From positions 6,658-70,657 of the forward strand of contig CAZMHV010000003.1 in the NCBI GenBank assembly GCA_964566225.1: 64,000 nucleotides of DNA. The letters run 5' to 3'. Of this stretch, positions 12,774-37,518 are shown piece after piece (the stretch's first letter is position 1; each line of letters begins with the position of its first letter). The stretch is from an uncultured Gammaproteobacteria bacterium (lineage in GTDB: Bacteria; Patescibacteriota; Patescibacteriia; Magasanikbacterales; UBA922). Below the pieces are notes generated by a model. The model saw nothing but the letters and a program-made list of their open reading frames with translations, had not been told where the DNA came from and made no database searches. A program made the position numbers and the translations under genes.

Positions 12774-12808
12774 ATATCTGGATTTTGGGTAAAATATTCA
12801 AACCAAAT

Positions 12809-12879
12809 GGGCGCGTCGTATAATGGTAGTACTGCGGTCTCCAAAACCGTATGCGTGGGTTCGATTCCCCCCGCGCCTG
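12809..12879 (+). tRNA. tRNA-Trp (anticodon CCA)
   Basis: Manual fold: 7-bp acceptor stem (one G-U), D-arm, anticodon stem GCGGT/ACCGT with loop cuCCAaa, T-loop GGTTCGATTCC, discriminator G. CCA is not encoded. Confidence 0.75.
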
Positions 12880-12890
12880 CTAGTGAAAAT

Positions 12891-12916
12891 AGAGCTTCAT
12901 TGAGCTCTGTTTTTTG
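12891..12916 (+). terminator. Rho-independent terminator after tRNA-Trp
   Basis: AGAGCT(tcattg)AGCTCT followed by GTTTTTT. Confidence 0.55.
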
Positions 12917-13018
12917 TATACCCGCAAGTGGAATCGAACTATTCTTTGGAAAAATATAGATTTTTTTATGAGATACTGTTAAAATAAAAACAATTTATAA
13001 TATGTGTGAATTAATTTT

Positions 13019-15004
13019 ATGAAGACAAAAAGTCGTAAACAGCAATATAAGCTTTACCTTGCTAGTGGCATTACTCTCTGGAAAACATATTTTCATAAAA
13101 ATTACTCACCTTTTTTTAATAAAAAAGTGGGGCTTTTTGAGCCTGGGACTTTAGATAATCCGAATGATCACCGTTTTATTCCTATTGGAATTGCTTGTTA
13201 CGATCTCAACGAGATTAACCATGCAGACGCACTTCTTGTGTATATGAAGCATTACCAATCTCTTGATGGATCTCCAACTGGTACAGATAGTACTTGGGAA
13301 TGTGGATATGCAATTGGAAAAGGGAAACCCGTAGTTATGCTGATTGAAGATAAGGACCATATTGATTACTACGCTTCACAGTGGATGGTAAGTTTTAGTA
13401 TTAATGCTATTCTTACCGTTCATAAAGAAGTGGCAGAGATTGTAAAAAAACATCCAAAATTTGTTCATACCACTGTTCTTTTGGCAGAAAACAAAAATCA
13501 ATTTGAGACAAAAGTAACTGAATATCTAGATAATTATTATAGATCAATATATTCTCGTTCAGGGGTCATTAATTACGCAGTAGATAAAAGAGCTCGAGAA
13601 CTTTTTAGTAGAAAGAGTTTATCGGATATAATTTTTACAGAGAGTGCACCTCATAAAAAAGTAGTTGAAAAATTGAATAATTTGGAGGATTTAAAATTTA
13701 CGTCAGACGAAGATGCTCTGGTAGTCTGTGCAATAGAAAGATATATTTCGGAGTTGTTTAAAAGATCTCTTTCTGAAGAGGGGATTGATTCAGCAATTTC
13801 AGCGGTGATAAAAGTTTGGAACAAAAAGGAAAATTATATCTTGGATTGTTTAGAATACTCTTTAATACCACCTTTCGCAGAGGTAAAAAATAGACATTCA
13901 GGTATAAAAAAAATAAGACCAGAATTATTTTTTGAGTTGTATGACTTAGTAAACCATCATGTAGTTTCGGAAGCTCGTTCGATCAAGTCAGAATCTTTCC
14001 CTTATGATATCGGCGCAGTAGTGGAACTGTATAATTGGATGAATACCTATGCTTTAGATGACGTGTTCGATAATTCTGAAATGAGACAGCGTTCAAAAAC
14101 TGTCTGGAAAGCATTTTCCAGAAGAGACGCAATATATACTGGTTTATTAGGCCATTTATTACCACTGAAGTACTTCTTTATTATTGCCACTGAAAATAAA
14201 CAGATAGGTGAAGGTCTGGCAAAGGTAATGAATGATTATAATTATATAATGTACCAAGGACAGGTTTTTGATTTACAACTCACGTTTAATTCAGAAAAAA
14301 AGAAAAAGCTTCTCCAAAAGAAGAATTTGGAAGAAATGCTTCGAATATACTTACAAAGAATTTATGGGATTTGTGGAGGCTTTTTTGAAGCGATTGGCGA
14401 ATTGTCTGCGAAAGCAGGGGATAAAGAAGAACAAATTATGAACGCTGCGGAAATTGATGTCGTTGCTCCGATAATTGGTATGTATTATGGGATTATTCAG
14501 ATGATACGAAATGACCTTGGAGATTATATTATTGTTGAAGAAGTTTCTGGAATGAGTAAAGGTATGAAAGGGGTATCTCATTGCGATATTACTGAGGGGA
14601 AAGTTGATATTACCTATTTGATAGCGATGTACTCATCCGTTTTGGATAAAAAAGAGAAAAAGTTTTTATATGAGTCTTTGTTTAAAAAATTGAGTCAAAA
14701 ACAGAAGTTAAAGATTAATGAGCTACTTTGGAAATCAGGAGCTATAGATCTCACCGTTGAATTGATTCATAATATCATTAAACATGTTAATACTACACTA
14801 CTGACGAAGTATCACGAAACCCCCACACGCACAAAGTGGATGTTCAGTTTAATGGATATTACAAAGGAAGTGTTGATCCCATTCAAGGATCAAGCCTCAA
14901 AATTTGGTTGGATGAAGTATGAATATGATAAAGAACTTCTTGAAGATGTGACAAAGAAAGTTTTAAGCTTAGAAAATAAAACAAAGGGACAGAGGTTGAA
15001 ATAA
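13019..15004 (+). CDS. Fusion protein: N-terminal nucleoside 2-deoxyribosyltransferase-like domain, C-terminal polyprenyl (isoprenyl diphosphate) synthase-like domain
   Basis: N-terminus '...DSTWECGYAIGKGKPVVML' resembles the NDT/flavodoxin-fold 'DSGTxFExGYAxAxGKPV' motif. C-terminus has FARM-like 'ALDDVFDNSEMRQR', then 'GICGGFFEAIGELSAKAGDKEEQI...IQMIRNDLGDY...KGMKGVSHCDITEGKVDITYLIAMY', collinear with trans-prenyltransferase SARM regions. The second Asp-rich motif is degenerate (NDLGD). Confidence 0.5.
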   Translation: MKTKSRKQQYKLYLASGITLWKTYFHKNYSPFFNKKVGLFEPGTLDNPNDHRFIPIGIACYDLNEINHADALLVYMKHYQSLDGSPTGTDSTWECGYAIGKGKPVVMLIEDKDHIDYYASQWMVSFSINAILTVHKEVAEIVKKHPKFVHTTVLLAENKNQFETKVTEYLDNYYRSIYSRSGVINYAVDKRARELFSRKSLSDIIFTESAPHKKVVEKLNNLEDLKFTSDEDALVVCAIERYISELFKRSLSEEGIDSAISAVIKVWNKKENYILDCLEYSLIPPFAEVKNRHSGIKKIRPELFFELYDLVNHHVVSEARSIKSESFPYDIGAVVELYNWMNTYALDDVFDNSEMRQRSKTVWKAFSRRDAIYTGLLGHLLPLKYFFIIATENKQIGEGLAKVMNDYNYIMYQGQVFDLQLTFNSEKKKKLLQKKNLEEMLRIYLQRIYGICGGFFEAIGELSAKAGDKEEQIMNAAEIDVVAPIIGMYYGIIQMIRNDLGDYIIVEEVSGMSKGMKGVSHCDITEGKVDITYLIAMYSSVLDKKEKKFLYESLFKKLSQKQKLKINELLWKSGAIDLTVELIHNIIKHVNTTLLTKYHETPTRTKWMFSLMDITKEVLIPFKDQASKFGWMKYEYDKELLEDVTKKVLSLENKTKGQRLK

Positions 15005-15055
15005 ATAGTGAGTAGGCTAGGGGACTAGGAATGAATAAAGTTTGGAATATAAACA

Positions 15056-15151
15056 TATCCCTTTTCTCCTTTCAAAATAGTTCCAACTTCCTCCACAATG
15101 GCCTGCAGATAAAAACATAGCTCGATCATGCTATGTTTTTTTGTACAAATG
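15056..15151 (+). repeat. Conserved intergenic element, copy A (ends in terminator hairpin 15111–15143)
   Basis: Shares the core '...TTCCAAC..CC.CACAATGGCCTGCA.AT.AAAACATAGCT..[hairpin]..TTTTTT.TA(C)AAA' with copies B and C. Confidence 0.7.
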
Positions 15152-15261
15152 AAAAAAATTATCGATAAAAATAGACTTAAATAAGCAATAATCTTTCTGA
15201 ATGATTGAATTATCATTCAAATAGTGTTAAGGTATAAACTCTGTACTTTTAAAAAGAATCT

Positions 15262-16635
15262 ATGATTTCAGTAATAATTCCCATTTTGAACGAAGAAAAA
15301 ACAATACAAAATATTATTCGATCTGTTCAAAAATATAAAGAAGTAACTGAAATTATTGTTGTTGATGATAAATCAATTGATCGGAGTGTGGAGATTGTAA
15401 AGTTATTGGGTGTTAAGATTATTACGAGCACAAAACTTGGGAAAGGAGCATCAATGCGTGATGGAGTTTTATTTGCAAAAAATGATATTATTGTTTTTCT
15501 CGATGGTGATATAAAAAAATATGCTGATGGTTTTTTAAAAAAAATAACGAAGCCAATTTTAAGTGGAAAGTGTGATTTTGTAAAAACGACATTTGATAGA
15601 GAAGCGGGGAGGGTAACGGAGTTAGTAGCGAAGCCTTTGTTAAGTTTATTATTTCCAAAATTGGCAAAATTTTCTCAACCTTTGAGTGGCATAATCGCAG
15701 GGAAAAAGGAATATTTTGAAAAGATTACTTTTGAAGATGATTATGGTGTTGATATTGGAATTTTGATTGATATGCATCAACTTGGAGCGAAAATATGTGA
15801 AGTTAAGATTGGAAAAATTGAGCATAAAATGAAGATGTGGCAAGAACTGAGCTCTATGTCAAAAGATGTTTCGAAGGCAATACTAAAAAGAGCCAATAAT
15901 TCTTCAACATTGGCTTTGAATCAGTTGGAAACAATTAGTATTATTCGTGATCAAATGGGGTTCGCTATCAAGGAATCTTTGAAAAAAATGAAAAAAATGG
16001 TTATTTTTGATATGGATGATACTATATTGAAGGGAAGATTTGTTTATGAATTTGCGACTCGATTTGGTTTTAAAAGGGAGTTGTTAAAAATTGTTCGTCT
16101 TCATAAAGATCCACTTATTCGTACTAAACGTATTGCCAATTTAATGCGTGGATTTGATATAGGTCAAATAATTGAATTTGTCGAAGCTATGCCAATAGTT
16201 TCAGATATTACTGAAACTATTAAAATTTTAAAATCGAGAGGGTATGTTGTTGGAATTATTAGTGATAGTTATGATGTCGTTGCTCAACATATCAAACATA
16301 AGGTAGATGCTGATTTTTCTTTGGCGAACGAGTTAGAATTTTCTAAAAGTGTCACAACTGGTGAAGTAAAAATTCCATCTTTTTTTATTAAAAATAAAGA
16401 CAGTAAGTGTCAACATAGTGTATGCAAAAGTAATGCGTTGCTGAGTGTAAGCAAATCGTATTCAATCGGTATACGGAATATTATTTCTGTGGGTGATGGT
16501 GAAGGAGATATTTGTATGGTAAAATATTCAGGATTAGGAGTCGCATTTTGTTCTAAAAACAAAGACCTAAAAAAAATTGCCCAAGTTGAAATTTTGAAAA
16601 GAGAGTTTTTACCAATGCTTCATATCGCCTTATAA
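15262..16635 (+). CDS. Bifunctional-looking glycosyltransferase (GT2/GT81-like, GpgS/MpgS-like) fused to HAD-superfamily phosphatase
   Basis: N-terminus 'VIIPILNEEKTI...VVDDKSIDRS...FLDGD' has the GT-A fold with DxD. C-terminus 'MVIFDMDDTIL ... SVGDGEGDI' shows HAD motifs I and IV. 457 aa. Confidence 0.6.
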   Translation: MISVIIPILNEEKTIQNIIRSVQKYKEVTEIIVVDDKSIDRSVEIVKLLGVKIITSTKLGKGASMRDGVLFAKNDIIVFLDGDIKKYADGFLKKITKPILSGKCDFVKTTFDREAGRVTELVAKPLLSLLFPKLAKFSQPLSGIIAGKKEYFEKITFEDDYGVDIGILIDMHQLGAKICEVKIGKIEHKMKMWQELSSMSKDVSKAILKRANNSSTLALNQLETISIIRDQMGFAIKESLKKMKKMVIFDMDDTILKGRFVYEFATRFGFKRELLKIVRLHKDPLIRTKRIANLMRGFDIGQIIEFVEAMPIVSDITETIKILKSRGYVVGIISDSYDVVAQHIKHKVDADFSLANELEFSKSVTTGEVKIPSFFIKNKDSKCQHSVCKSNALLSVSKSYSIGIRNIISVGDGEGDICMVKYSGLGVAFCSKNKDLKKIAQVEILKREFLPMLHIAL

Positions 16636-16638
16636 AAT

Positions 16639-17115
16639 ATGACCCAAAATAAAAAAAAGAATCAAGCAAATTTAATCGCTTCACTCCTTCATATTTTTGG
16701 ACTTTGTATTGTTGTCATTTTGGTAAGTATTTCTGTAATTCATAGGTCATCTCTTATCGGGTGGGCATTAATTTTTCTCGGTCTTTTTTGTTTGGCAAGT
16801 TTATCTTTTTTGAAGATCAGTTTGAAATCTCTTCAACCAGATATTATTTTTGGTATTATTGATAATGGTATTTTAGTTGTTACTGCACTTTTTGGAGCTC
16901 ATTTTGCAGGAGTTTCTGGTGCGGTTGTTGGTGGGGTAGTTGGAAACGCTCTCACCGATGGTATCGCAGGAGTGTTTGAGGGCTATTCTGCTGAAAAACT
17001 TCGTTCTTTGGAAATTTCAGAACAACGAACGGTTTTAAAGTCAGCCGTTGGGAAAATGGCTGGGTGTCTTTTGGGAGCAGGTTTTGTTTTAATGGTGGTT
17101 GAATTTTTATTTTAG
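16639..17115 (+). CDS. Hypothetical membrane protein
   Basis: 158 aa with 4 predicted TM segments and Gly-rich helices. Confidence 0.5.
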   Translation: MTQNKKKNQANLIASLLHIFGLCIVVILVSISVIHRSSLIGWALIFLGLFCLASLSFLKISLKSLQPDIIFGIIDNGILVVTALFGAHFAGVSGAVVGGVVGNALTDGIAGVFEGYSAEKLRSLEISEQRTVLKSAVGKMAGCLLGAGFVLMVVEFLF

Positions 17116-17210
17116 ACTTTTGATTTTTTCTGTTATTGGATCTGTTTGATTCTGAGGTATTGTTTTTGATAAACTAAATCTGACACGGTGTCAAATGAAG
17201 GATATAAATG

Positions 17211-17306
17211 TATCCTTTGTTTTCTTGGAAAGTAATTTCAATATCCTTCACGATGGCCTGCACATGAAAACATAGCTTCAATGAGCTGTGTTTTTTTATA
17301 CAAAAT
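17211..17306 (+). repeat. Conserved intergenic element, copy B (terminator hairpin 17267–17297)
   Basis: 'TATCCTTTG...TTTCAATATCCTTCACGATGGCCTGCACATGAAAACATAGCTtcaatgAGCTGTGTTTTTTTATACAAAATGG', alignable to copies A and C. Confidence 0.7.
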
Positions 17307-17392
17307 GGACGAATGTGTTGAAAGTTGGTACACTAATTTAAACTCCAATATTTAGTTTTTAACTATATCTGATTTAGATGTAAAGACAAAAT

Positions 17393-18034
17393 ATGCAGAT
17401 AGCTAATAAAATATCTTCGTGGCAAGAACTTTCAAAACGAGATAAAGTAATTTTTTTGGCGTACTATTTTCTTATTTGTATTTTCCCAATAATTTCTATA
17501 CTTGCCTTTCTTGATTTATCTCCACTTTCAAAATTTTCAGAAGGACTTTCTGGATTTATTGGTGTGGGGTTATTTTTGTTGTTTCCTGTTATTACATTTA
17601 CTTTGCTTCAAGAACGAATACATTTAATACTTCGCTCTCCTCTTCGTTTTTTTTCTCCTTTTTTTATACAGGCAGGCTTTTTGATATTTAATTTTTTCCT
17701 TCATAGAGAAGACGTTATTCAAAGTATTATTATTTCTGTGCTTTCTGAATTTTGTGGTTTATTTTTAATCTTGTCATCTAGTATCATTTTTCTTATTTAC
17801 AAAAAACGGATTGCTCGGGTAGAACGAATTGGTGACAAGTTGGTAAAGTTAGGTTTTGGGTTATTTATTACACTATTTTTATGGATACCTTTGGTGGCTT
17901 TGGGCTATGCTTACTTTATGAATAGCTTGAAGTTCACTCCACTTTTTGCATTCATTGCGATCATACAGTTTTTTACCGGCGTTATCACTGTGGCTCTTTC
18001 ACAAAAAAAATTATTAAAAGATGGCACTATATAA
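17393..18034 (+). CDS. Hypothetical polytopic membrane protein
   Basis: 213 aa with about 6 TM segments and no motifs. Confidence 0.5.
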   Translation: MQIANKISSWQELSKRDKVIFLAYYFLICIFPIISILAFLDLSPLSKFSEGLSGFIGVGLFLLFPVITFTLLQERIHLILRSPLRFFSPFFIQAGFLIFNFFLHREDVIQSIIISVLSEFCGLFLILSSSIIFLIYKKRIARVERIGDKLVKLGFGLFITLFLWIPLVALGYAYFMNSLKFTPLFAFIAIIQFFTGVITVALSQKKLLKDGTI

Positions 18035-18054
18035 ATTAAATTTTTGAATATAGA

Positions 18055-18152
18055 CAATACTTTTTTTCTTCTTGTAGAATAGTTCCAACCTTGCTTACTC
18101 TGGCCTGCACGCTAAAACACTGCTAATATAAGCTGTATTTTTTATACATTGC
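18055..18152 (+). repeat. Conserved intergenic element, copy C (degenerate hairpin followed by T6)
   Basis: '...TAGAATAGTTCCAACCTTGCTTACTCTGGCCTGCACGCTAAAACACTGCTaatataAGCTGTATTTTTTATACATTG'. The hairpin has two mismatches. Confidence 0.65.
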
Positions 18153-18230
18153 CCAGTTTTTGTTTAAGCCTTGAAAGAAAACCCTCTTCTTGATAGTGTT
18201 ATATGTATTATTTCCCTTATTTTTCATTGT

Positions 18231-18695
18231 ATGGCAGATGTATCCAAAAATAAAAATGTACTCATCGCGGTTTTGGTGATTGGTGTTTTGGCTGCTGGAT
18301 CTTTTGGTATATATCGTTCATCAGTATCAAATACTGTGGGTGCTCCTACAAATCCACCCGTTTCACAGCAAGATGTCCCTTCTGCGGTAAGTGCTTCGTA
18401 CAAAGATGGAGACTATACTGCTGTTGGTACCTACACAGCACCAAATGGACAGGAAACAATTGGTGTGAATGTAACATTAAAAAATAACGTAATTACCAAT
18501 GTTGCTGTACAAGCACAATCAACACAACCCCAATCGAAACGATTTCAAGATATGTTTGCCGAGAATGTTCAGGGTGCCGTAGTTGGAAAAAATATCAGTG
18601 AAATTAATCTCAAAAAAGTTTCTGGTTCATCTTTGACACCAAAAGGCTTCAATGATGCCCTCAATAAAATCAAAACACAGGCTGCTCAGGCGTAA
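18231..18695 (+). CDS. FMN-binding domain protein (NqrC/RnfG-like, extracytoplasmic, membrane-anchored)
   Basis: N-terminal TM helix, 'YKDGDYTAVGTYTAPNGQETIGVNVTLKNNVITNV' FMN_bind fold, and a C-terminal 'KKVSGSSLT' candidate flavinylation motif ([DN]xx[ST]G[AS][ST]). ORF-track start is 18171. Confidence 0.6.
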   Translation: MADVSKNKNVLIAVLVIGVLAAGSFGIYRSSVSNTVGAPTNPPVSQQDVPSAVSASYKDGDYTAVGTYTAPNGQETIGVNVTLKNNVITNVAVQAQSTQPQSKRFQDMFAENVQGAVVGKNISEINLKKVSGSSLTPKGFNDALNKIKTQAAQA

Positions 18696-23094: not shown

Positions 23095-24228
23095 ATGCAA
23101 AATTTTACCAATATTCCAATTATTCGAAATATTCTCTCTCATACTGGCCGTCTCGACGGCGACGACACCGGTTTTCGTTCAGTCGCTTTGAGTCCACTTG
23201 ATAAAATTAACCCAGATCCACTTGTTCTCATAAACAAGAGAGTAAAGTGTTATCCAAGAAATAGAAAATTCCAACGCAATAATTTTGATCCTATTATTTG
23301 TGATGGCAGTGTAAAAGATGAAAGAATGTTTTTGCGTGAGCCTGCTATACGTGCCATAGAAGAAGTAAATAATTTGCTAGAACCTTATGGAAGAGAGTTG
23401 GTACTCGTTGGTGCGTTTCGTCATGTTCACTCACAAGCGCTTGTTTTTTCGGACGCTTTCAATCGTTGGCTTGGTGAAAAAGAGTACGATCAACTCACTG
23501 TAACCGAACAAATACAACTCGGACGTAAAGCCAATGAAGCTGCTTTGTTTGTAGACATTTTACAAGATGATTTGTACGAAGGTGAAAAACAAAAAATAAA
23601 AATGAGTGATACTTTTTATGACATAATTTCTGCGGCAAAAAATTTAGAAAAAACTCCAGATCAGATAATTGACGAACTTTTCATTTATGAAACGAATCTT
23701 GGAAAATTGAATCTCAACCTTGATAAAATTGCGTCCACTGCACATGGAAATGGAGGTTCTGTTGACGCTTGGGTTATTGATTCTTCAAGTGGTAAATTTG
23801 TAAATCGTGGTGTACCAGCTGCATATAACCATGCTCCTGCTGTAATGGATTATTTTGAATGGGCTACGGTAGAAATGTTTGAAGACGAGAGACAAAAGAG
23901 TCCTGTACTCGATGCCTATCTGAGTGGTTATGGAGTAGAAAAAATAACAGAATCTGTTATGAAAGAAATTCGTAATGAACGAAGAATCTTGTTTCACGCC
24001 ATGATGCATGTGGGTGCAACGTATTTTTCTTTGGGCAAAACAGAAGGTGAATGTTGGCATTTTAATTTTGGAAATGAACGGGGAGGAAATCAGTTTGATG
24101 TATTGCCCTTTGGTGGTGGAGCACCACATTCTTTGTTAAAAAATATACGAGAGAAACACACAGAAGAAGTTACTGCTTGTTGGACCAATGAAGTAGCACA
24201 TAACATGTATGATCAATTGATGAAATAA
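23095..24228 (+). CDS. Peptidase M15 family protein (VanX-like D-Ala-D-Ala dipeptidase-like)
   Basis: 'STAHGNGGSVDAWV' resembles the M15 'SxHxxGxAVD' zinc-ligand motif. Start taken after the poly-Lys region (ORF track 23068). Confidence 0.45.
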   Translation: MQNFTNIPIIRNILSHTGRLDGDDTGFRSVALSPLDKINPDPLVLINKRVKCYPRNRKFQRNNFDPIICDGSVKDERMFLREPAIRAIEEVNNLLEPYGRELVLVGAFRHVHSQALVFSDAFNRWLGEKEYDQLTVTEQIQLGRKANEAALFVDILQDDLYEGEKQKIKMSDTFYDIISAAKNLEKTPDQIIDELFIYETNLGKLNLNLDKIASTAHGNGGSVDAWVIDSSSGKFVNRGVPAAYNHAPAVMDYFEWATVEMFEDERQKSPVLDAYLSGYGVEKITESVMKEIRNERRILFHAMMHVGATYFSLGKTEGECWHFNFGNERGGNQFDVLPFGGGAPHSLLKNIREKHTEEVTACWTNEVAHNMYDQLMK

Positions 24229-24265
24229 ACAATTTTTTATACATCGAAAAAATTAATTTCAACCA

Positions 24266-24300
24266 ATAAAAAAATTCTGATGATACATCAGAATTTTTTT
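24266..24300. terminator. Bidirectional terminator
   Basis: AAAAAATTCTGATG(ata)CATCAGAATTTTTTT. Confidence 0.6.
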
Positions 24301-24342
24301 CACTTTTGTTGTGACGAATAGTTCGTCATCACAAAGGCAGGC

Positions 24343-24386
24343 GGCTCGGCGACGACTGGACCGAAGTGGTCAGCGTCGCCGAGTCG
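24343..24386 (-). terminator. GC-rich hairpin just downstream of the high-GC lipoprotein gene
   Basis: CTCGGCGACG(19-nt loop)CGTCGCCGAG, a perfect 10-bp GC stem. Confidence 0.45.
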
Positions 24387-24441
24387 TGAATTGAGGATTG
24401 AGAGATGTTGATCGAGTCTCGCCGTGGAGGCGAGTGGAGTG

Positions 24442-25431
24442 TCAGCGCTTGGCCGCGGCCGCCGATCCGTTGCAGTCCAGCAACGACTTCTGGTTCTCCG
24501 TGAGGCTGGCCTCAAGGTCTTCGCAGAGTCGTTCACCGAGCCGCTCTTTGTCGTTGAGATTCTGTTCGCCGTATTTCTCCCCGTCCTTCGGAAGCTTCTT
24601 CCAGGTCTCGATGAGCTCGACGATGCCCTTGAGCTTCTTCTGGGCGACCATCTCCGGGGTCAGACCGTTGTAGATCTGGTTGGGCTGGGATTTGCCCTCG
24701 GAGACGAAACCAGAGAACTTGTCGACCAGGCTCACCCGATCGCCGTCGTCGCAATTCGGAGAGCTCACGCAGAAGAAGGTGGTGCTGGGGAAGGGCTTGT
24801 CGAAGAACACGATGTTGGCCAGAGCCTTGAGGTGGGCCAGGTTCAGCTCGTCGAGCTTCGCCTGGATCTTCTCGTCCGAGACCTCGTTGTTCGTCGTCAC
24901 CCCACTGGGAGAAGGGTGCTTCCTGAACCGCTCGAGGGGGTGTTCACAGGCGCTCAGCATGCTGAGTGCCTTCATGTACTCGTCGCGCAGTCGTCCCGCG
25001 CCGGTCTTGTCCTGCGCCGTGGCGGGCGTGGCCGCGGCGTTGACCTGGTTCGCGAAGTCCTTGGCGCCGAGGGGGTTCTCTCCATTCAGGCAGGCAGTGG
25101 CCTCCTTGGTGAGCCTGGCGAAGTTCTCCTTTTCTCCCGACGTGCTGCCGGGCGCGGCGCTTGTGGGCTCGAGGGCGCCCGATCCGCCGACCTTGACGGG
25201 TTCGGCGAACCGCGAGGTGAGCAACATGCTCAGTTTGTTGATGCATGCCTGCGCCGACATGAACTCTTCCGGTGTGCCGGTCGGGCACACGACCTCCACG
25301 TCATTGGCCGTGGGGGGTTCGTGGTAGTTGTAGGAGGACGAATCTTCCTCCACTTCTCCGTTGCAGCCGGCGAAGACTGTGGCCAGGATGGCGAGGAAGG
25401 CGGCGAGCGCCAGGACGATGCGGATCGGCAT
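24442..25431 (-). CDS. Putative lipoprotein encoded in a compositionally foreign (about 60% GC) segment
   Basis: 329 aa with signal peptide plus lipobox 'ATVFAGC'. Codon usage is strongly GC3-biased, unlike all neighbours. No known domain recognised. Confidence 0.6.
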   Translation of the reverse strand: MPIRIVLALAAFLAILATVFAGCNGEVEEDSSSYNYHEPPTANDVEVVCPTGTPEEFMSAQACINKLSMLLTSRFAEPVKVGGSGALEPTSAAPGSTSGEKENFARLTKEATACLNGENPLGAKDFANQVNAAATPATAQDKTGAGRLRDEYMKALSMLSACEHPLERFRKHPSPSGVTTNNEVSDEKIQAKLDELNLAHLKALANIVFFDKPFPSTTFFCVSSPNCDDGDRVSLVDKFSGFVSEGKSQPNQIYNGLTPEMVAQKKLKGIVELIETWKKLPKDGEKYGEQNLNDKERLGERLCEDLEASLTENQKSLLDCNGSAAAAKR

Positions 25432-25713
25432 CGGGGGATTCCTTTCAACAAGACACTATTTGGTTTCTCTCGATCTCTCGATCCAGCTTCTTTAGTCCCT
25501 AAAAACTAGGAAACCAAAAAAGCTGGATCGAAATTCTCTCAATTCAGTTGTAAAATAACGTGATTTAAGCGCAAAAATTGAGCTAAATCAACGAGCGAAT
25601 ATACCATAAAAAGAGAAGTTTGTCAAGTATATGTGAATAAATTTGCTTGTATAGAGCAAAATTTATAAGTTTTTTTAAAAATACTCATGATTTTATGATA
25701 TACTTTCTGTACT

Positions 25714-26541
25714 ATGCTCTCCATTCTCGACCCCCAATTTAGCAGCACCCACAATTACAAAAACGACGAAATGCTCCGCCGTCGACGAGCTTTGTATGAA
25801 TACGAAGTCAACCGTGTTGATATTTTTGCCGAGCTCATGGATGTTGTCGGTCAACACCCTGCATCGACACTGCTAGATGTGGCCTGTGGGTTTGGAGATT
25901 TTTTGATTCGTTTGCGTACGGAAAGAAAATTTGAGGGGAGATTGGTTGGAATTGACGCCTCGTCTGGAATGCTCCAAAAACCAATACAAATAGCTTTAGA
26001 AAAAAATTTGAATATTAAATTTGAATCTGCTGACGTGCATCACTTACCTTTTGGCGACGAAGAGTTTGAGAGTATTACGTGCAATTTTGCTTTGTATGCT
26101 TTTGAAAATATGCCACAGGCAATTACCGAAATACACCGATGTCTCAAAAAGGGTGGGTATTTTATTGGTGCTGTGCATGGAGAAAATAACCGACCAAAGT
26201 GGTCATCTTACTTGCATAAAATCTCAGATATGTTAGGGTTAGAAAGTCAGCCATTTGCTTGGGATCGTGTGAATATCCAAAACATTGATTCATCGTTATC
26301 GGGTTTTGTTGTAAAAGAGAAAAAATATTTTGAAACCATTATTCGACTACAAAATGCTGAACCCTTTGTTGACTATACTGATACTTTTCGTGACTTGCGA
26401 TATAACCCCGTGCCAACGGATGATCAGTGGAGTCAGGCACTTGACCTGGTGAGAAGTGAAGTGAACAAAGAAATTGAGCAAAATGGCTTTTTTGAAGAGA
26501 TTTCAAAAACAGGAATATTTATTGCACAAAAATTAGGATAA
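25714..26541 (+). CDS. Class I SAM-dependent methyltransferase
   Basis: Motif I 'LLDVACGFGDF' and Rossmann-fold MTase layout. 275 aa. Confidence 0.7.
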   Translation: MLSILDPQFSSTHNYKNDEMLRRRRALYEYEVNRVDIFAELMDVVGQHPASTLLDVACGFGDFLIRLRTERKFEGRLVGIDASSGMLQKPIQIALEKNLNIKFESADVHHLPFGDEEFESITCNFALYAFENMPQAITEIHRCLKKGGYFIGAVHGENNRPKWSSYLHKISDMLGLESQPFAWDRVNIQNIDSSLSGFVVKEKKYFETIIRLQNAEPFVDYTDTFRDLRYNPVPTDDQWSQALDLVRSEVNKEIEQNGFFEEISKTGIFIAQKLG

Positions 26542-29436: not shown

Positions 29437-29508
29437 TCCCGGGTAGTTGAGTGGTACAACACCTCGCTGTTAACGAGGATATCGCTGGTTCGAGTCCAGC
29501 CCTGGGAG
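29437..29508 (+). tRNA. tRNA-Asn (anticodon GTT); integration target of the mobile element
   Basis: Manual fold: acceptor TCCCGGG/CCTGGGA (one G-U), D-arm GTTG/CAAC, anticodon stem CCTCG/CGAGG with loop cuGTTaa, T-arm GCTGG-TTCGAGT-CCAGC, discriminator G. The 3' end is overlapped by the recombinase ORF. Confidence 0.8.
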
Positions 29509-30975
29509 CATGGCTGGACGTTCCTTATATTCAGCGAGTGCCTGAAGGGGACTTCTTAGCTCAAATAAAAGGTTTTTACCTCTCAACTGTAAGTTCTGAA
29601 ATACAAAGTTGAGTATTTGGCGTTTCTCTTCGATTTCAGAACTTTTGAAAATGTCAGAAGCTCTTTGTGCTAAAGAAAGAAGCTGTGTTGCGCTGAGGCT
29701 ATAGTTTTCATCTGCATTTGTGTGGTCTTCTAGTTGAAGCTCAATATCTCGTTGCTTTTCTTTGATCTGTTTGAATTTTTTATCATAGACGTCCTTAGTA
29801 ATACTACGGTCGAGCATAAAGTCAAGTAGGGTATCAGATTGTGCTTGAAGGGCGTCATATTCGTTTCTAAGCGTGTTTACAGCCTGAGAGTGATATTTAC
29901 TCTTTGTTTCGTTCATCGTGTGTATTTTAGCCGTAATTTCTGCCACTTGTATATCTGAAAGTTGGATACTATTGAATGCCTCATAAACAGGTTTTAAGAG
30001 ATCATTTTCATTTACATAGATACGTTTGCAAGTATATTTTGAGTTTGTACAACTATAATGGTTATATATCTTTTTGTGTCGCTCAGCGGTAACTCGACAA
30101 CCACAGTTGGCACATGAAATAAGTCCTTTAAAGATAAAGGGGTGTGAGATTGATTTAAACGGAGTCTTTTTCTTTGATAAGCGTATTTTTGTAGCTTGTT
30201 CAAAAGTATAGCGAGAGATAATTGGCTCGTATTTATGTGGATAGGGTTTAGTTTTAGAGATCATCGTTCCACAATAGAAAGGATTTTTCAATATACATTC
30301 AATCATGCTTTTGGAGAGTATTTTCCCATTAGCACTTTTTAATCCTTCTTTTTCCATTATATTTTTTATATCAAGCATTGATGTGGTGCCAGATATGTAC
30401 AGATCAAAAATCTTTTTTATATATTGCCTTCGAGATTCATCGACTATAATATCTCGTTGATTTTTTTCTTCACCAATATTGAGGTAGCCAATAGGTGCTC
30501 GGCCTATCCATTCGCCGTTTCGTAGTTTTTGTTCGTAAGCACGTTTAACATTATCACTGATTGCGTCAGAGTAGTATTTTGCTAGGTGTAGATTCATTCC
30601 AAAGTGAAATTTTTCTGTTGCAGAGGTTTTTTGATCTATGACAAGATTTTCAGATGTAAAGTGCAACTCAATTTTTCCTTGTTGAGCCATTTCGTATAAA
30701 AGGGGAACACGCTTGTCAAAGACATTGCGTGAAAGACGATCCACCTTATCAAAGCAGACAGCAACTGTTTCCTTTTGGTTTTTAAGATATTCAAGAGCTT
30801 TATCAAATTCGTCTCGTTTTTGTTTATACGCACTTTCGTCAAAGACAAACTGTTTATCTATTTTTAATCCTTTTCTATCACAATAATCCTCGAGTCGTTT
30901 AACTTGAGCGGGTAGAGAGTTACCAGCTTCTTTTTGTTCTTCGGTAGAGACTCGTGCTAGAATTATCGATTTCAT
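29470..30975 (-). CDS. Large serine recombinase (integrase), copy 1; C-terminus altered by the attL junction
   Basis: N-terminal resolvase domain 'ILARVSTEEQ...' with catalytic Ser, recombinase domain, zinc ribbon 'CANCGCRV...YNHYSC', coiled coil. The last 10 aa differ from copy 2 because the ORF crosses the att crossover into the tRNA. Confidence 0.85.
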   Translation of the reverse strand: MKSIILARVSTEEQKEAGNSLPAQVKRLEDYCDRKGLKIDKQFVFDESAYKQKRDEFDKALEYLKNQKETVAVCFDKVDRLSRNVFDKRVPLLYEMAQQGKIELHFTSENLVIDQKTSATEKFHFGMNLHLAKYYSDAISDNVKRAYEQKLRNGEWIGRAPIGYLNIGEEKNQRDIIVDESRRQYIKKIFDLYISGTTSMLDIKNIMEKEGLKSANGKILSKSMIECILKNPFYCGTMISKTKPYPHKYEPIISRYTFEQATKIRLSKKKTPFKSISHPFIFKGLISCANCGCRVTAERHKKIYNHYSCTNSKYTCKRIYVNENDLLKPVYEAFNSIQLSDIQVAEITAKIHTMNETKSKYHSQAVNTLRNEYDALQAQSDTLLDFMLDRSITKDVYDKKFKQIKEKQRDIELQLEDHTNADENYSLSATQLLSLAQRASDIFKSSEIEEKRQILNFVFQNLQLRGKNLLFELRSPLQALAEYKERPAMLPGLDSNQRYPR

Positions 30976-30988
30976 ATGCTTTGTATTG

Positions 30989-33817: not shown

Positions 33818-35513
33818 AGAACTTCTCGGTTAGTGCCTTTTCATCTTTCGATACTGTGTGCCGTGTATCGTTCATATCGGCGTAATTTAGGTATAGCTGG
33901 TTTTCGTCTAGTATGTCGGCAAGTGCCTGCTTGCGACCAGCCAAATCAAGCTTGCGAAAGTTTTCGTCTTTTTCAAACTCGGCACGGTCAAACCAGAACT
34001 TCAAGAAGGCGTTGTTACGCATATCTACATACAGGTTTTCCAGTTCTTTGATACTCGTGGCTTCCATAATAGCGTCAATATATTCTTGGTTGTATTTCTT
34101 CAACTCAAAGTAAACAAACGAGGTGTTGCTGTAATACTTTTTTATGGCATTTTCTAAACGCTTGAAGGTAACGTTATTTACATAGTCCATCTGTTCAATC
34201 AAGATGAACTTACGACTACCACCATCTTCGGCATTTTGAGCCATCACAGCCTGTGCGGTAGTGCCTGAACCACCAAAAAAGTCCAGCACGATGTCATCGG
34301 GCTCAGTGCTGATTTGTATACTGTCTTTGACCATAGCAACTGACTTAGGGTAACTAAATACTTTGCCACCAATCATGTCTTTCAAGTCGCTAGTCCCCGT
34401 TGTTCCAGAGTATTCAGGTCTAAACCAAAGCGATTTTGGTCGTTCTCCCTTTATACGAAGTTTAGTGTATATTTTATATTCGCCATTGACTTTTCTTACT
34501 TCCGTTTCGGTTTTCCATTTTTCCATAAGTGTATCTCTGCCCCAACGCCATCTTCGTTCAATTCCATTACTATCAATCGGTAGCATTTCAACACCGTTTT
34601 CAGATTTTGAGATAGACACTTCTTTTGTGTCGGGGTCGTAATAGACAGGGTAAAAAAGATTTGGTCGGTCTTCTCGCCGTGAGCCATCACCACTACGCTG
34701 TAATGGTATGCTTTTATATTTACTTATTTCATCTTCTTGCGGGTAACTGCTTGAATTATCAAAGTTGAAGTCTTTAATTTTTGCGTATTTGGCATTTTTA
34801 GCATATACAATCTTATTCTCGTGTGCGGGCGAAAAAAACTCGTTATATCTTCCCTTTAAATTATGGACAACAGCAAGCACACCAAGCCTATTTTCATAAC
34901 CAAAAATCTCGTCAGCCAAAACGCCCAAATAAAACAATTCGTAGTGGTCAATATCTATAAAAATCATACCATCTTCGGTCAGCAACTCTTTGGCTACTTC
35001 AAGTCTGTTTTTCATAAATGTAAGCCACGAACTGTGATTGAAGTTATTGTTATAGGCAAAGGTGTTGGCGTCCGTGCGGGTATTGTAAGGCGGGTCAATA
35101 TAAATGAACTTAACTTTGCCCGCTAAGCGTTCACGCAGGGTATAAAGTGCTAACAGGTTGTTGCCCTTGATAAGCAGGTTTTGTTTTAGATTGTCGTCTT
35201 CGTCAAAAAACTGAATATCGCTATCGGCGGTCAGTGCCTTTTCTCCGTCTTTGTCTATAAGGCGAAAGTCAGTTAGAACCTTCGGTTCTTCTAGTGTGTC
35301 TATATCTTTACTATCTAGCGTTTGATGTAAAAAGCGTTCATCACGCCCTACATCTTCTTTGCTCATACCCGCTTCCAGCACAGCGTCCTTGAACGGAAAT
35401 GATAACACTACATCGTTATCGTTTTTGATAAAACTGCCCTTACTCGTACTGACCAACCCTATCTTATTCGGATATTGCGTATATCTTCCTTTTTTAGATG
35501 AATTATTTGTCAT
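33798..35513 (-). CDS. mod: Type III R-M modification methyltransferase (Mod; beta-class N6A/N4C MTase)
   Basis: Motif IV 'IYIDPPYNT' precedes motif I 'LDFFGGSGTTAQA' (beta-class order typical of Type III Mod). 571 aa. Confidence 0.85.
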   Translation of the reverse strand: MTNNSSKKGRYTQYPNKIGLVSTSKGSFIKNDNDVVLSFPFKDAVLEAGMSKEDVGRDERFLHQTLDSKDIDTLEEPKVLTDFRLIDKDGEKALTADSDIQFFDEDDNLKQNLLIKGNNLLALYTLRERLAGKVKFIYIDPPYNTRTDANTFAYNNNFNHSSWLTFMKNRLEVAKELLTEDGMIFIDIDHYELFYLGVLADEIFGYENRLGVLAVVHNLKGRYNEFFSPAHENKIVYAKNAKYAKIKDFNFDNSSSYPQEDEISKYKSIPLQRSGDGSRREDRPNLFYPVYYDPDTKEVSISKSENGVEMLPIDSNGIERRWRWGRDTLMEKWKTETEVRKVNGEYKIYTKLRIKGERPKSLWFRPEYSGTTGTSDLKDMIGGKVFSYPKSVAMVKDSIQISTEPDDIVLDFFGGSGTTAQAVMAQNAEDGGSRKFILIEQMDYVNNVTFKRLENAIKKYYSNTSFVYFELKKYNQEYIDAIMEATSIKELENLYVDMRNNAFLKFWFDRAEFEKDENFRKLDLAGRKQALADILDENQLYLNYADMNDTRHTVSKDEKALTEKFYGENEN

Positions 35514-35516
35514 AAT

Positions 35517-35882
35517 TTATTGGGTACTTACTTGTTTTAAAAATGTATCAAACTCTTTTTGATCAATTCTGTATTCTTTACCAATTTTATATGCTGTTAA
35601 TTTTCCAGCTTTGATATAACGATAAATGGTCATCGGGTTAACCCTTAGTTTATTTGCTAGTTCTTCTACTAAGTAAAAGTCATTTTTATTTTCTTGTTTT
35701 GACAGATCTATTTTTACTATAGGAGCTTCTTGGTTATTTTTAGGAATTGGTTTATAAACCAGTTTTACCAACTGTAAAAGTTTATGTGCCTGTTGAAAGG
35801 CATCGTCCTTGGATAATCTTTCGCCAAACTGTTCCTCGTATAACTTTTGAAACTCTTCTAGAGCTTTATCATCTATTTTCAT
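35517..35882 (-). CDS. Excisionase-family HTH DNA-binding protein (candidate recombination directionality factor or regulator)
   Basis: C-terminus 'MTIYRYIKAGKLTAYKIGKEYRIDQKEF' matches the HTH_17/Xis-MerR-like motif. 121 aa. Confidence 0.6.
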   Translation of the reverse strand: MKIDDKALEEFQKLYEEQFGERLSKDDAFQQAHKLLQLVKLVYKPIPKNNQEAPIVKIDLSKQENKNDFYLVEELANKLRVNPMTIYRYIKAGKLTAYKIGKEYRIDQKEFDTFLKQVSTQ

Positions 35883-35923
35883 ATGTTTATAGTTAATGTA
35901 ATTATACTTTACTTTGGTTTACA

Positions 35924-37045: not shown

Positions 37046-37073
37046 ATCATTACATCTTTTGGGCCTTACAATT

Positions 37074-37334: not shown

Positions 37335-37454
37335 AAAGTTGTGGATTATTACGTTTATCTATTTCCCAAAGCAAAGCAAAAAACTGAGCAAGATTTGTGA
37401 TCTGTCCGTTTGTAGAGGGGATCTGGTTGTCAGTCTCTTTTGGATACATAAAAC

Positions 37455-37483
37455 CTGATGGTGTTATCATCAGGTTATCATTG
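37455..37483 (-). terminator. Terminator after the 273-aa element gene
   Basis: AACCTGATG(gtgttat)CATCAGGTT with a T-run on the minus strand (GGTTTTATG). Confidence 0.5.
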
Positions 37484-37518
37484 CTTTACATTTGAAGATA
37501 AGAAGTTAGTGACCCACG

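What the first reader, a model, noticed from the sequence alone, without database searches (positions are those of the whole stretch)
15056..18152. Three copies of a conserved ~95-nt intergenic element ending in a terminator hairpin, a candidate sRNA or cis-regulatory family
Three intergenic regions within 3 kb share far more than a generic terminator. They lie at 15056–15151, 17211–17306 and 18055–18152, all on the plus strand. Each shares an upstream block of about 55 nt (TATCC.TTT..TTC..(A)ATAGTT(C)CAA...CC.(T)CAC.ATGGCCTGCA.AT.AAAACA) followed by a hairpin plus U-tract and TATACAAA. The conserved GGCCTGCA core and the hairpin position are invariant. Each copy sits between a gene end and the next gene start. 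The elements could be 3'-UTR-derived sRNAs, leader attenuators for the downstream genes, or a short dispersed repeat.
Basis: seen in the sequence. Interest (0 to 1): 0.55.

Follow-up and report, generated by a model that had tools for sequence, protein, structure and literature searches.

The report
Integration-site scars beside tRNA-Trp
The three repeats are real, but they are most likely leftover junctions from mobile gene islands that inserted one after another next to the tRNA-Trp gene of a Patescibacteria bacterium: each keeps the last codons of a serine recombinase gene on the opposite strand plus a copy of the tRNA's tail and terminator, so they are probably not small regulatory RNAs.

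Summary
Three co-oriented copies of about 140 nt (15032-15174, 17186-17329, 18034-18174) share about 78% identity, and relatives occur in six other Patescibacteria contexts.

The sRNA reading is not supported. Each copy has two halves that meet at GGCCTGCA.

- **Right half.** The core, a trailer, a hairpin with compensatory changes, a T-run and GTATAC are homologous to the 3' end and flank of the neighbouring tRNA-Trp gene.
- **Left half.** This 60-90 nt block has no conserved RNA fold. It shows a protein-coding substitution pattern on the minus strand (0 of 2000 shuffles). It encodes a conserved tail, Q.IV..VGTIL..EKGYVYIP..*. In a Magasanikbacteria genome this tail directly follows a C-terminal fragment of a large serine recombinase (hhalign E 4e-6).

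In that genome and one other, an intact or truncated recombinase gene abuts tRNA-Trp, and in the Magasanikbacteria genome the block lies at the far end of an 8-kb low-GC island. Everything downstream of tRNA-Trp differs between relatives, and the window's array is GC-poor.

Best reading: the copies are att-junction relics that separate three recombinase-less islets integrated at tRNA-Trp. The hairpins probably still terminate transcription. This is a variant of a known kind and moderately interesting.

The parts
12809..12880 (+). tRNA-Trp(CCA) gene. This is the anchor (attB side) of the array, and its last 6 nt, GCCTGC (12875-12880), are the shared core.
   Evidence: ARAGORN; Rfam tRNA 57.5 bits.
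12875..12943 (+). Partial fourth copy: core GCCTGC, trailer, hairpin 12885-12914, T-run, and GTATACCCGCAAGTGGAATCGAACTATT. It is homologous to the right half of c1-c3 and to the right arm of the L045 copy. On the minus strand it reads ..QRIVRFHLRVYKKQSSMKLYFH*, in frame with the core.
   Evidence: nhmmer E 2.3e-6; alignment A3; sequence.
13019..15004 (+). Islet 1 cargo: a 661-aa fusion of a nucleoside-deoxyribosyltransferase-like domain and a polyprenyl synthetase. It has no homologue at this position in relatives.
   Evidence: Pfam; tblastn against relatives found nothing; GC 33-34%.
15032..15174 (+). Copy c1, a complete junction: left block, core, hairpin, T-run and GTACAAA.
   Evidence: 58.5 bits with the block model, the best-kept copy.
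15025..15108 (-). c1 tail-coding relic, LQAIVEEVGTILKGEKGYVYIPNFIHS*. It is part of a 63-aa ORF, 15216..15025, that reads through the hairpin.
15100..15107 (+). c1 core GGCCTGCA, the point where homology to the tRNA-Trp 3' end begins.
15111..15142 (+). c1 hairpin AAAAACATAGC/GCTATGTTTTT plus U-run, an intrinsic-terminator-like structure.
   Evidence: Fold z -2.87; pair counts.
15262..17115 (+). Islet 2 cargo: a GT2-HAD fusion (457 aa) plus a 158-aa partner. The same pair occurs at 74% identity in unrelated contexts elsewhere.
   Evidence: GC 31-33%.
17165..17329 (+). Copy c2: left extension shared with the L049 copy, block, core 17255-17262, hairpin 17266-17295, T-run and ATACAAAA.
17174..17262 (-). 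c2 tail-coding relic, ..VQAIVKDIEITFQENKGYIYILHLTPCQI*. It has the same stop position as the L049 copy and differs from it by an in-frame 3-nt indel.
17393..18034 (+). Islet 3 cargo: a 213-aa protein with no Pfam match.
   Evidence: GC 32%.
18034..18174 (+). Copy c3, the most decayed and the distal end of the low-GC array. Core 18102-18109; hairpin 18114-18141 has mismatches. The tail relic on the minus strand, 18036-18110, reads VQARVSKVGTILQEEKKYCLYSKI*.
   Evidence: z +0.91; 43.6 bits, the lowest of the three; GC rises to 37-42% beyond it.

Best explanation
The three copies are relic attachment-site junctions of genomic islets that integrated, one proximal to the other, at the 3' end of tRNA-Trp by way of large serine recombinases (LSRs).

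In this element family the recombination core, GCCTGC (the last bases of the tRNA), lies inside the 3' end of the recombinase gene, which is read on the minus strand towards the tRNA. Integration therefore separates the last ~27 codons from the body of the gene. Those codons are the conserved 'block', which encodes Q.IV..VGTIL..EKGYVYIP..*. They are left at the far end of the island, joined at the core to a copy of the tRNA trailer and terminator hairpin.

Repeated insertion at the tRNA-proximal side produced this array: tRNA-Trp | islet 1 | c1 | islet 2 | c2 | islet 3 | c3. The recombinase genes themselves have since been deleted from the window.

Shown: the two-part homology, the coding signature, the link of the tail to an LSR fragment, LSR genes abutting tRNA-Trp in relatives, the variable low-GC content, and the breakpoints at the core.

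Inferred: the order of events, that these LSRs catalysed the insertions, and that the hairpins now serve only as terminators for the cargo genes.
For: 1. **Right half matches the tRNA-Trp 3' end and flank.** nhmmer gives E 2.3e-6 in the window and 5e-5 to 3e-3 in relatives. Alignment A3 has invariant CTGC, AAA, hairpin and T-run. In L045 the similarity continues about 30 nt past the hairpin, to GGAATCGAACTATTTT.

2. **Left half is coding on the minus strand.** Across 9 copies and 54 nt, 34% of differing codon pairs are synonymous, the mean BLOSUM62 score of differing codons is 1.89, and there is 1 stop in 162 codons. Column entropy at codon positions 1, 2 and 3 is 0.56, 0.31 and 0.86. No column shuffle out of 2000 reached these values jointly in any frame. 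The c2 and L049 copies differ by an in-frame 3-nt indel and share the same stop.

3. **The tail is always C-terminal.** A profile of the window's three peptides found 9 proteins among 1.84 billion (E 3.5e-9 to 5e-4). The match is always at the C-terminus, and the upstream parts are unrelated.

4. **One hit links the tail to an LSR.** P0146 (Candidatus Magasanikbacteria) has 87 residues upstream of the tail that are homologous to LSR C-terminal regions: hhalign probability 87%, E 4.4e-6, and Smith-Waterman 0 of 2000 shuffles against each of three LSRs.

5. **Intact arrangement in L052.** A 534-aa LSR (Resolvase + Zn_ribbon_recom; phrog_95 integrase, E 1e-65) overlaps tRNA-Trp by 15 nt, reads through the trailer hairpin and ends ..WQAR*. 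An island of about 8.3 kb and 31-39% GC, carrying a Toprim primase, ends at the block copy. The CAG codon of the core is in the same frame in both, so excision would restore the conserved tail.

6. **Truncated recombinase in L049.** A 290-aa LSR remnant, 52% identical to LSR534 residues 430-534 (E 3e-29), abuts tRNA-Trp.

7. **Breakpoint at the core.** The L013a and L052 copies share more than 100 nt of nearly identical left arm and diverge immediately after CTGC: hairpin in one, LSR coding in the other.

8. **Variable content downstream of tRNA-Trp.** Upstream synteny up to rpmG and tRNA-Trp is conserved in eight relatives, but everything downstream differs. L046 (tRNA | 652-aa gene | block-GCCTGC | G6PD leader) compared with L050 (tRNA | hairpin | G6PD leader) is an occupied against an empty site.

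9. **Composition.** The window's array, 13-18 kb, has 31-34% GC against 39-43% on both sides.

10. **Decay gradient away from the tRNA.** Block-model scores fall c1 > c2 > c3, and the first copy of L013 scores best and the last worst.

11. **Same principle in the same window at tRNA-Asn.** The LSR is 501 aa where it abuts the tRNA and 520 aa, with a different tail, at the internal junction of a tandem island copy.
Against: - No recombinase gene or detectable LSR remnant beyond about 25-60 codons lies in the window's tRNA-Trp array. tblastn with two LSRs found nothing in 12800-18400.
- No full-length LSR carrying the tail was recovered. The link rests on one 126-aa fragment, plus frame compatibility and the tRNA-Asn analogy.
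- The stretch just right of the hairpin in hairpin-type copies (P0142 residues 1-38) shows no significant similarity to LSRs. It is therefore unresolved whether the hairpin belongs to the element side (P') or the host side (B').
- The L046/L050 and L049/L047 comparisons suggest different positions for the junction relative to the hairpin.
- LSRs are not known (from my own knowledge) to recombine attP with attL, so the serial-insertion route is conjectural.
- The L006 copy has no tRNA within its 8-kb locus.
- The L049 copy lies between divergent genes.
Confidence: 0.72

Rival explanations
1. The copies are a family of small regulatory RNAs or 3'-UTR/leader elements on the + strand. One version is a ~55-nt RNA started from a promoter-like TAnACA-17-TAAAAT inside the block and ended by the hairpin, with a CU-rich single-stranded seed.
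For: - Hairpin plus U-run with compensatory changes and G-U pairs on the + strand.
- c1 and c2 fold significantly better than shuffles.
- A promoter-like hexamer pair at conserved spacing is visible in most copies, and the scan found it for c3.
- A CU-rich, anti-Shine-Dalgarno-like stretch, and a weak RsaE-like hit.
- The block is conserved across genomes whose RecO proteins are only 60-75% identical.
Against: - No consensus structure in the block.
- The putative seed (columns 11-18) is the most variable part of the block.
- The RsaE hit is 22.5 bits against a gathering score of 79, E 2.1.
- Promoter-like matches are frequent in this AT-rich DNA (43 found, 25 expected), and the -10 is broken in L049 and c2.
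- Several copies lack the adjacent hairpin (L046, L013c, d, e).
- The period-3 substitution pattern, the in-frame indel and the link to the recombinase tail are unexplained by an RNA function.
Confidence: 0.08
2. The copies are still-active recombination sites of an integron-like gene-capture system. Recombinase-less cassettes (cargo plus block-core-hairpin) would be excised and inserted at tRNA-Trp in trans by an LSR encoded elsewhere in the genome.
For: - Gene-element-gene-element arrays in two genomes: 3 copies in 3 kb in the window and 5 copies in 4.4 kb in L013, including an almost empty interval between L013d and L013c and a weak HicA-like pair as one unit.
- Unrelated cargo in every lineage.
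- The core GGCCTGCA is intact in all three window copies.
- Invariant AGTTCCAA and AC.ATGG.CTGC show no synonymous variation, as expected of protein-binding DNA.
Against: - The cores are mutated in four of the five L013 copies: GCTCTGCT, TTTTGCCA, GTCCTGCA, GTTCTGCT.
- The c3 hairpin is decayed.
- Conservation falls with distance along the arrays, as for relics.
- No LSR specific for this site was found in the window; the only LSRs belong to the tRNA-Asn island and have a different tail.
- No evidence of excised forms.
Confidence: 0.13
3. Each copy encodes an independent micro-protein of 21-36 aa on the minus strand, for example from the GTG at the 'IV' valine, preceded by AGG in the core.
For: - Coding signature on the minus strand.
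- Short ORFs with GTG, TTG or ATG starts in most copies.
- The conserved TGCAGGCCAT upstream of the GTG could act as a weak ribosome-binding site.
Against: - No conserved start: the codon before the tail is CTG, GTG, GAG, CAG, TGG, ATG or TAG, and the internal GTG is GTA in three copies.
- No Shine-Dalgarno sequence.
- On the minus strand the ORF lies immediately downstream of a hairpin with a U-run, with no room for a promoter.
- ORFs called in metagenomes have unrelated N-terminal parts of 20-95 aa.
- No Pfam family and no homologue in the word-indexed search.
- In P0146 the peptide is the continuation of a recombinase fragment.
Confidence: 0.05
4. The copies arose by local duplication of the tRNA-Trp terminator region, or are degenerate tRNA-Trp pseudogenes, with no link to mobile elements.
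For: The right half is homologous to the tRNA-Trp flank. MAFFT aligns the block loosely with the tRNA body at similar length.
Against: - The block is not significantly similar to the tRNA body (p 0.6-0.96), and its similarity to the tRNA promoter is weak and inconsistent (p 0.01-0.96).
- cmscan finds no tRNA in the copies.
- Copies occur in distant genomes with different cargo.
- The block carries the recombinase-tail coding signal.
Confidence: 0.02

Closest known systems
attL/attR direct repeats and integrase-gene remnants flanking genomic islands integrated at the 3' ends of tRNA genes, including tandem island arrays. This rests on general knowledge of genomic islands; the review PMC2704930 turned up but I did not read it.
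   Same: A short sequence identical to the tRNA 3' end is repeated at the distal island boundary. The recombinase gene sits next to the tRNA in intact relatives. Cargo is variable and compositionally deviant. Older units lie further from the tRNA.
   Different: The recombinase is a large serine recombinase, whereas tyrosine integrases are usual at tRNA genes (own knowledge). The units here are tiny (0.9-2.2 kb) and have lost the recombinase. The host is a reduced-genome Patescibacteria bacterium.
SSV-type ('suicidal') archaeal integrases, whose recombination site lies inside their own ORF, so that integration splits the gene (PMC7253208, abstract).
   Same: The att core lies inside the recombinase ORF. 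Integration separates part of the gene and leaves it at the other end of the element, next to a tRNA-derived repeat. Such fragments persist as markers of old integrations.
   Different: SSV integrases are tyrosine recombinases and are inactivated by the split. Here only the last ~27 codons of a serine recombinase are exchanged, and the tRNA-adjacent gene stays intact (534 aa in L052; 501 against 520 aa at tRNA-Asn).
Integration-dependent immunity of mycobacteriophage BPs and relatives. [quoted passage not shown]
   Same: Integration swaps the C-terminal end of a phage or island protein because attP is inside its coding sequence.
   Different: The gene affected there is the repressor and the integrase is a tyrosine recombinase. 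No regulatory consequence has been shown here.
Integron gene-cassette arrays with attC sites.
   Same: Co-oriented, unrelated genes each followed by a related ~100-nt site; arrays; a toxin-antitoxin-like unit in one array.
   Different: There are no RYYYAAC...GTTRRRY inverse-core and core pair, no whole-site imperfect palindrome and no IntI. The sites are conserved in sequence rather than structure and carry a recombinase-tail coding signal.

Membership tests
att junction of a tRNA-integrated island | The boundary repeat is identical or homologous to the 3' end of the target tRNA gene. | tested here: met
   GCCTGC plus trailer, hairpin and T-run are shared between tRNA-Trp and all full copies.
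att junction of a tRNA-integrated island | A site-specific recombinase gene lies adjacent to the tRNA or att site. | tested here: inconclusive
   Met in relatives: L052 has an intact 534-aa LSR overlapping tRNA-Trp, and L049 has a 290-aa remnant. Not met in the window's tRNA-Trp array.
att junction of a tRNA-integrated island | The enclosed DNA is accessory: absent or different in relatives and compositionally distinct. | tested here: met
   Genes downstream of tRNA-Trp differ in all relatives. GC is 31-34% against 39-43%.
att junction of a tRNA-integrated island | An empty site exists in a relative, with the junction at the repeat. | tested here: inconclusive
   L046 against L050 and L049 against L047 show insertions between tRNA-Trp and conserved downstream DNA. 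However, the position of the junction relative to the hairpin differs between the two pairs.
att junction of a tRNA-integrated island | The sites are recombined by the cognate recombinase. | not testable with these tools
   This needs an in vivo or in vitro recombination assay, or read-level evidence of excision.
C-terminal fragment of a large serine recombinase gene | Coding-type substitution pattern in one frame. | tested here: met
   Minus frame 0; joint column-shuffle test 0 of 2000; entropy at codon positions 0.56, 0.31, 0.86. The test was not significant on the 42-nt core alone with 11 copies.
C-terminal fragment of a large serine recombinase gene | Contiguity with recognisable LSR sequence. 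| tested here: met
   P0146 residues 4-87 against an LSR C-terminal profile: hhalign probability 86.7%, E 4.4e-6. Smith-Waterman p < 5e-4 in each of three comparisons. This is a single instance; the other 8 hits have unrelated upstream parts.
Bacterial sRNA or cis-regulatory RNA family | Conserved secondary structure with covariation outside the terminator. | tested here: not met
   RNAalifold predicts no pairs on 10 copies. Single-sequence folds of the block disagree with each other.
Bacterial sRNA or cis-regulatory RNA family | Match to a curated RNA family. | tested here: not met
   Only tRNAs reach the gathering score. The best sub-threshold hit is RsaE at 22.5 against 79 bits.
Bacterial sRNA or cis-regulatory RNA family | A discrete transcript with its own 5' end. 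| not testable with these tools
   Only consensus promoter scans are available, and they are inconclusive.
Integron attC site | R''/R' core pair (RYYYAAC ... GTTRRRY) and an imperfect palindrome spanning the site. | tested here: not met
   By inspection, TTCCAAC is a 6/7 match to the inverse core, but there is no GTTRRRY partner. No whole-site hairpin appears in the folds.
MITE or REP-type dispersed repeat | Terminal inverted repeats and scattered genomic distribution. | tested here: not met
   Only the L045 copy has a 10-nt inverted pair. Copies are clustered: 3 in 3 kb of a 64-kb window and 5 in 4.4 kb.
tRNA pseudogene | Detectable similarity of the block to a tRNA. | tested here: not met
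   cmscan at E <= 10 finds no tRNA in the copies. Smith-Waterman against tRNA-Trp gives p 0.6-0.96.

The most novel reading that the evidence does not exclude
Patescibacteria carry a family of serine-recombinase islands whose attP lies inside the recombinase's own 3' end. Integration at tRNA-Trp (and, with a different enzyme, at tRNA-Asn) would then switch the enzyme between a long form with a conserved ~27-aa tail and a short form. Serial tRNA-proximal insertion followed by loss of the recombinase would work as an integron-like gene-capture mechanism that supplies accessory genes to these minimal genomes. The block-core sites might still be usable in trans.
Probability: 0.3. Interest if true: 0.65.

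Novelty: new variant of a known kind. Interest (0 to 1): 0.4.

Why it matters
It removes a false sRNA candidate and shows how such candidates can arise. A strongly conserved 'intergenic' block next to a terminator can be a stranded gene end on the other strand combined with an att site.

It also marks the 3' flank of tRNA-Trp as a gene-acquisition hotspot in a Patescibacteria lineage. These organisms have tiny genomes, and their routes of gene gain are poorly known.

If the tail swap of the serine recombinase on integration is functional, it would be a bacterial serine-recombinase counterpart of the archaeal SSV-type self-splitting integrases and of integration-dependent switches in mycobacteriophages. 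The sites and enzymes would then be candidates for new integrase and att pairs.

Tried and rejected
- **tRNA pseudogene idea.** The MAFFT alignment looked suggestive, but shuffle tests and cmscan rejected it.
- **Block as tRNA-Trp promoter with the tRNA deleted.** The similarity is limited to GTAAAATA.TTC.AAC, with p 0.01-0.96. Not supported.
- **Sigma-70 promoter inside the block.** The scan found only c3. The most conserved bases lie downstream of the putative -10. Not retained.
- **attC-like site, or a long hairpin between AAAATAGTTC and GAACTATTTT.** The pairing is present only in L045. Rejected.
- **AbrB/SpoVT-like peptide.** GYVYIP resembled GRVVIP from memory, but there was no Pfam hit at E <= 10. 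Dropped.
- **Word-indexed protein search with the 63-aa ORF.** It found nothing. The exhaustive profile search was needed.
- **One viral scan wasted** on a pattern with wrong spacing. The correct pattern found nothing in viral contigs.
- **Metagenome pattern scan.** 35 of 36 loci were chance matches in coding DNA.
- **tblastn of P0146 against phage genomes:** no match.
- **P0146 against PHROGs and NCBIfam:** no useful hit.
- **BLASTP of P0146 against single LSRs** was not significant. Significance came only from shuffle-calibrated Smith-Waterman and hhalign.
- **Right arm of hairpin-type copies against LSRs:** not significant.

Full report
**1. The observation**

The three stretches are as described. 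They lie on the + strand, each between the end of one + strand gene and the start of the next. They align at 78% mean column identity over 149 columns. The identity extends about 60 nt upstream of the hairpin and a few bases beyond the T-run. nhmmer scores them at E 1e-34 to 1e-38 and finds no other full copy in the 64-kb window. A spaced pattern through the conserved part matches exactly these three places, against none in shuffles. GC is 38% overall. Only two tRNAs reach Rfam thresholds.

**2. A fourth, partial copy at tRNA-Trp**

The same model hits 12875-12921 (E 2.3e-6). This is the last six bases of tRNA-Trp (12809-12880) plus its trailer, hairpin, T-run and GTATAC. In alignment A3 the tRNA-Trp flanks of the window and of three relatives line up with the right halves of the copies. 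CTGC, the A-run, the stem and the T-run are invariant.

The stem is 97% paired over 10 sequences. It has compensatory changes at 5 of 11 pairs and several G-U pairs on the + strand. It therefore behaves as a + strand RNA hairpin, that is, an intrinsic terminator. The hairpin is strong in c1 and c2 but no better than shuffles in c3.

**3. More copies elsewhere**

- A pattern scan of one genome per species found one copy in a Patescibacteria MAG (L006).
- The metagenome scan gave one true locus, L013, with five copies in 4.4 kb on the strand of its genes. The other 35 loci were chance hits.
- Loci fetched through RecO homologues added copies in L045, L046 and L049.
- These copies were detected by models that did not contain them (E 7e-23, 2e-15, 4e-11).
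- The left 'block', about 60 nt ending in ..AC.ATGGCCTGC, is the best conserved part. What follows the core varies. It is the tRNA-type hairpin in most copies, the leader of the next host gene in L046, and other sequence in L013c, d and e.

**4. What the block is not**

- It has no consensus RNA structure and no consistent single-sequence fold.
- It has no Rfam relative. RsaE scores 22.5 bits against a gathering score of 79.
- It is not detectably related to the tRNA body and only marginally to the tRNA promoter.
- A promoter-like hexamer pair can be read in it. The scan finds it only in c3, and such matches abound in this AT-rich DNA.

**5. What the block is**

Of the six frames, minus frame 0 stands out. 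Across nine copies and 54 nt, 34% of differing codon pairs are synonymous, substitutions are conservative (mean BLOSUM62 1.89), and there is one stop in 162 codons. Column entropy is 0.56, 0.31 and 0.86 at codon positions 1, 2 and 3. No column shuffle out of 2000 matched this in any frame (earlier versions, where the 42-nt core alone was not significant). The c2 and L049 copies differ by an in-frame 3-nt indel and stop at the same codon.

There is, however, no conserved start codon, no ribosome-binding site and no room for a promoter. This is the signature of a gene end, not of a gene.

A profile of the window's three peptides, searched against 1.84 billion proteins, returned nine ORFs of 45-126 aa. 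The match is always C-terminal (Q.IV..VGTIL..EKGYVYIP..*), and the N-terminal parts are unrelated.

One of them, P0146 from Candidatus Magasanikbacteria, has 87 residues before the tail that are homologous to the C-terminal region of large serine recombinases. hhalign gives probability 87%, E 4.4e-6. Smith-Waterman gives 0 of 2000 shuffles against each of three recombinases, at colinear positions.

**6. The intact arrangement**

In the P0146 genome (L052), a 534-aa serine recombinase (Resolvase + Zn_ribbon_recom; phrog_95 integrase) converges on tRNA-Trp and overlaps it by 15 nt. It reads through the tRNA's trailer hairpin and ends ..TRWQAR*.

About 8.3 kb away, at the other end of a 31-39% GC island with a Toprim primase, lies the block. 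It has the same orientation as the recombinase gene, and its core CAG codon is in the same frame. Recombination between the two cores would therefore give a recombinase with the conserved tail.

In L049 a 290-aa remnant of a homologous recombinase (52% identity, E 3e-29) abuts tRNA-Trp. The L013a and L052 copies share a nearly identical left arm of more than 100 nt and diverge immediately after CTGC, with a hairpin in one and recombinase coding sequence in the other. This places a recombination breakpoint at the core.

The same window shows the principle with intact genes at tRNA-Asn. There the serine recombinase next to the tRNA is 501 aa. At the internal junction of a 9,318-bp tandem copy it is 520 aa with a different tail.

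**7. The context fits islands**

In eight relatives the ribosomal operon, secY, adk, map, ruvX, recO, rpmG and tRNA-Trp are syntenic. Everything downstream of the tRNA differs.

L046 has tRNA | hairpin | 652-aa gene | block-GCCTGC | TC | G6PD leader. L050 has tRNA | hairpin | G6PD leader. L049 carries about 7 kb between the tRNA and the PAS-sigma gene, which follows the tRNA directly in L047.

In the window the stretch from the tRNA to c3 has 31-34% GC against 39-43% on either side. Its GT2-HAD gene pair occurs at 74% identity in unrelated contexts. Conservation of the copies falls with distance from the tRNA, c1 > c2 > c3, and similarly along L013. This is what insertion at the tRNA-proximal end would produce.

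**8. Mechanism proposed, and its weak points**

I read the copies as relic junctions of three islets. Each would have been brought in by a serine-recombinase element whose att core lies within the 3' end of its own recombinase gene. The recombinase genes were later lost, leaving the tail codons, the core and the hairpin. The hairpin probably still terminates the cargo transcripts.

Several points are not shown:
- No recombinase remnant lies in the window's array.
- No full-length recombinase with the tail was recovered.
- The right arm of hairpin-type copies is not demonstrably recombinase-derived.
- The two occupied/empty comparisons disagree on whether the junction is left or right of the hairpin.
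- The route by which internal block-core-hairpin junctions form is conjecture. It could be serial insertion at the tRNA side or homologous recombination between related islands.

**9. Comparison with what is known**

tRNA-anchored islands with att repeats and decaying integrase genes are classical. The closest special cases are the archaeal SSV-type integrases, whose att site lies inside their ORF (PMC7253208), and mycobacteriophage integration-dependent immunity (PMC4557955). That attP lies inside the repressor gene in the latter is from my own knowledge, because the indexed abstract is cut off before it says so.

The present case differs in three ways. It uses a large serine recombinase, only the C-terminal ~27 residues are exchanged, and it occurs as arrays of very small recombinase-less units in Patescibacteria. 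I file it as a new variant of a known kind, of moderate interest. As an sRNA candidate it should be dropped.

Noticed in passing
window 29437-48742: tRNA-Asn (29437-29509) is followed by a 9,318-bp unit present twice in tandem (repeat starts at 29491 and 38809; the 300 nt compared are 99-100% identical). Each unit carries a large serine recombinase, a type III restriction-modification pair (Res 942 aa, Mod 571 aa), an HTH_17 protein and two unknown proteins. The recombinase is 501 aa next to the tRNA, with its tail encoded by the tRNA antisense, and 520 aa at the internal junction. A third recombinase fragment (218 aa, Zn_ribbon_recom) lies at 48086-48742. This could be a true tandem integration or an assembly artefact.
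   Followed up: partly
L046 11073-11181; L052 18790-18880 (minus strand): Upstream of the intact tRNA-Trp, L046 has the first 15 nt of tRNA-Trp followed by a 94-nt GC-rich insert. L052 has a tRNA-Trp pseudogene interrupted by GC-rich palindromes. These are further signs of repeated rearrangement at this tRNA.
   Followed up: no
window 12809-12880 compared with L045 1964-2035, L046 11182-11253 and L050 11070-11141: The window's tRNA-Trp is identical to that of L046 (RecO 60% identical). It differs in the anticodon and T stems from that of the closer relative L045 (RecO 75%), whose tRNA resembles L050's. The tRNA sequence types do not follow the RecO relationships. One possible cause is replacement of part of the tRNA by incoming elements.
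   Followed up: no
window 15262-17115: The GT2-HAD fusion (glucosyl-3-phosphoglycerate-synthase-like plus HAD-IB phosphatase) and its 158-aa partner occur as a pair at 74% identity in unrelated contexts (L002, L005). The fusion occurs at 52-61% identity in many phyla (Zixibacteria, Planctomycetota, Bacteroidota, Actinomycetota). The module appears to be widely transferred.
   Followed up: partly
window 24000-26000: A 2-kb stretch has 51% GC in a 38% GC window. It contains a 361-aa ORF (24424-25509, no Pfam match) with long overlapping ORFs on both strands.
   Followed up: no
window 13019-15004: A 661-aa protein joins a weak nucleoside 2-deoxyribosyltransferase-like N-terminus (below the Pfam cut-off) to a polyprenyl synthetase domain. 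It has no counterpart at this position in relatives.
   Followed up: no
window 12916-12943; L045 4120-4150: The sequence after the tRNA-Trp terminator (GTGGAATCGAACTATT) contains, on the minus strand, a 10/10 match to the tRNA's own T-loop (GTTCGATTCC; p about 0.005). It is also an imperfect inverted repeat of the block's AATAGTTCC..CCAC. Its meaning is unclear.
   Followed up: partly
L013 1477-2050: One unit of the L013 array is a two-gene pair whose second gene is weakly HicA-like (20.3 bits, below the cut-off of 27). It may be a toxin-antitoxin unit inside the array.
   Followed up: partly
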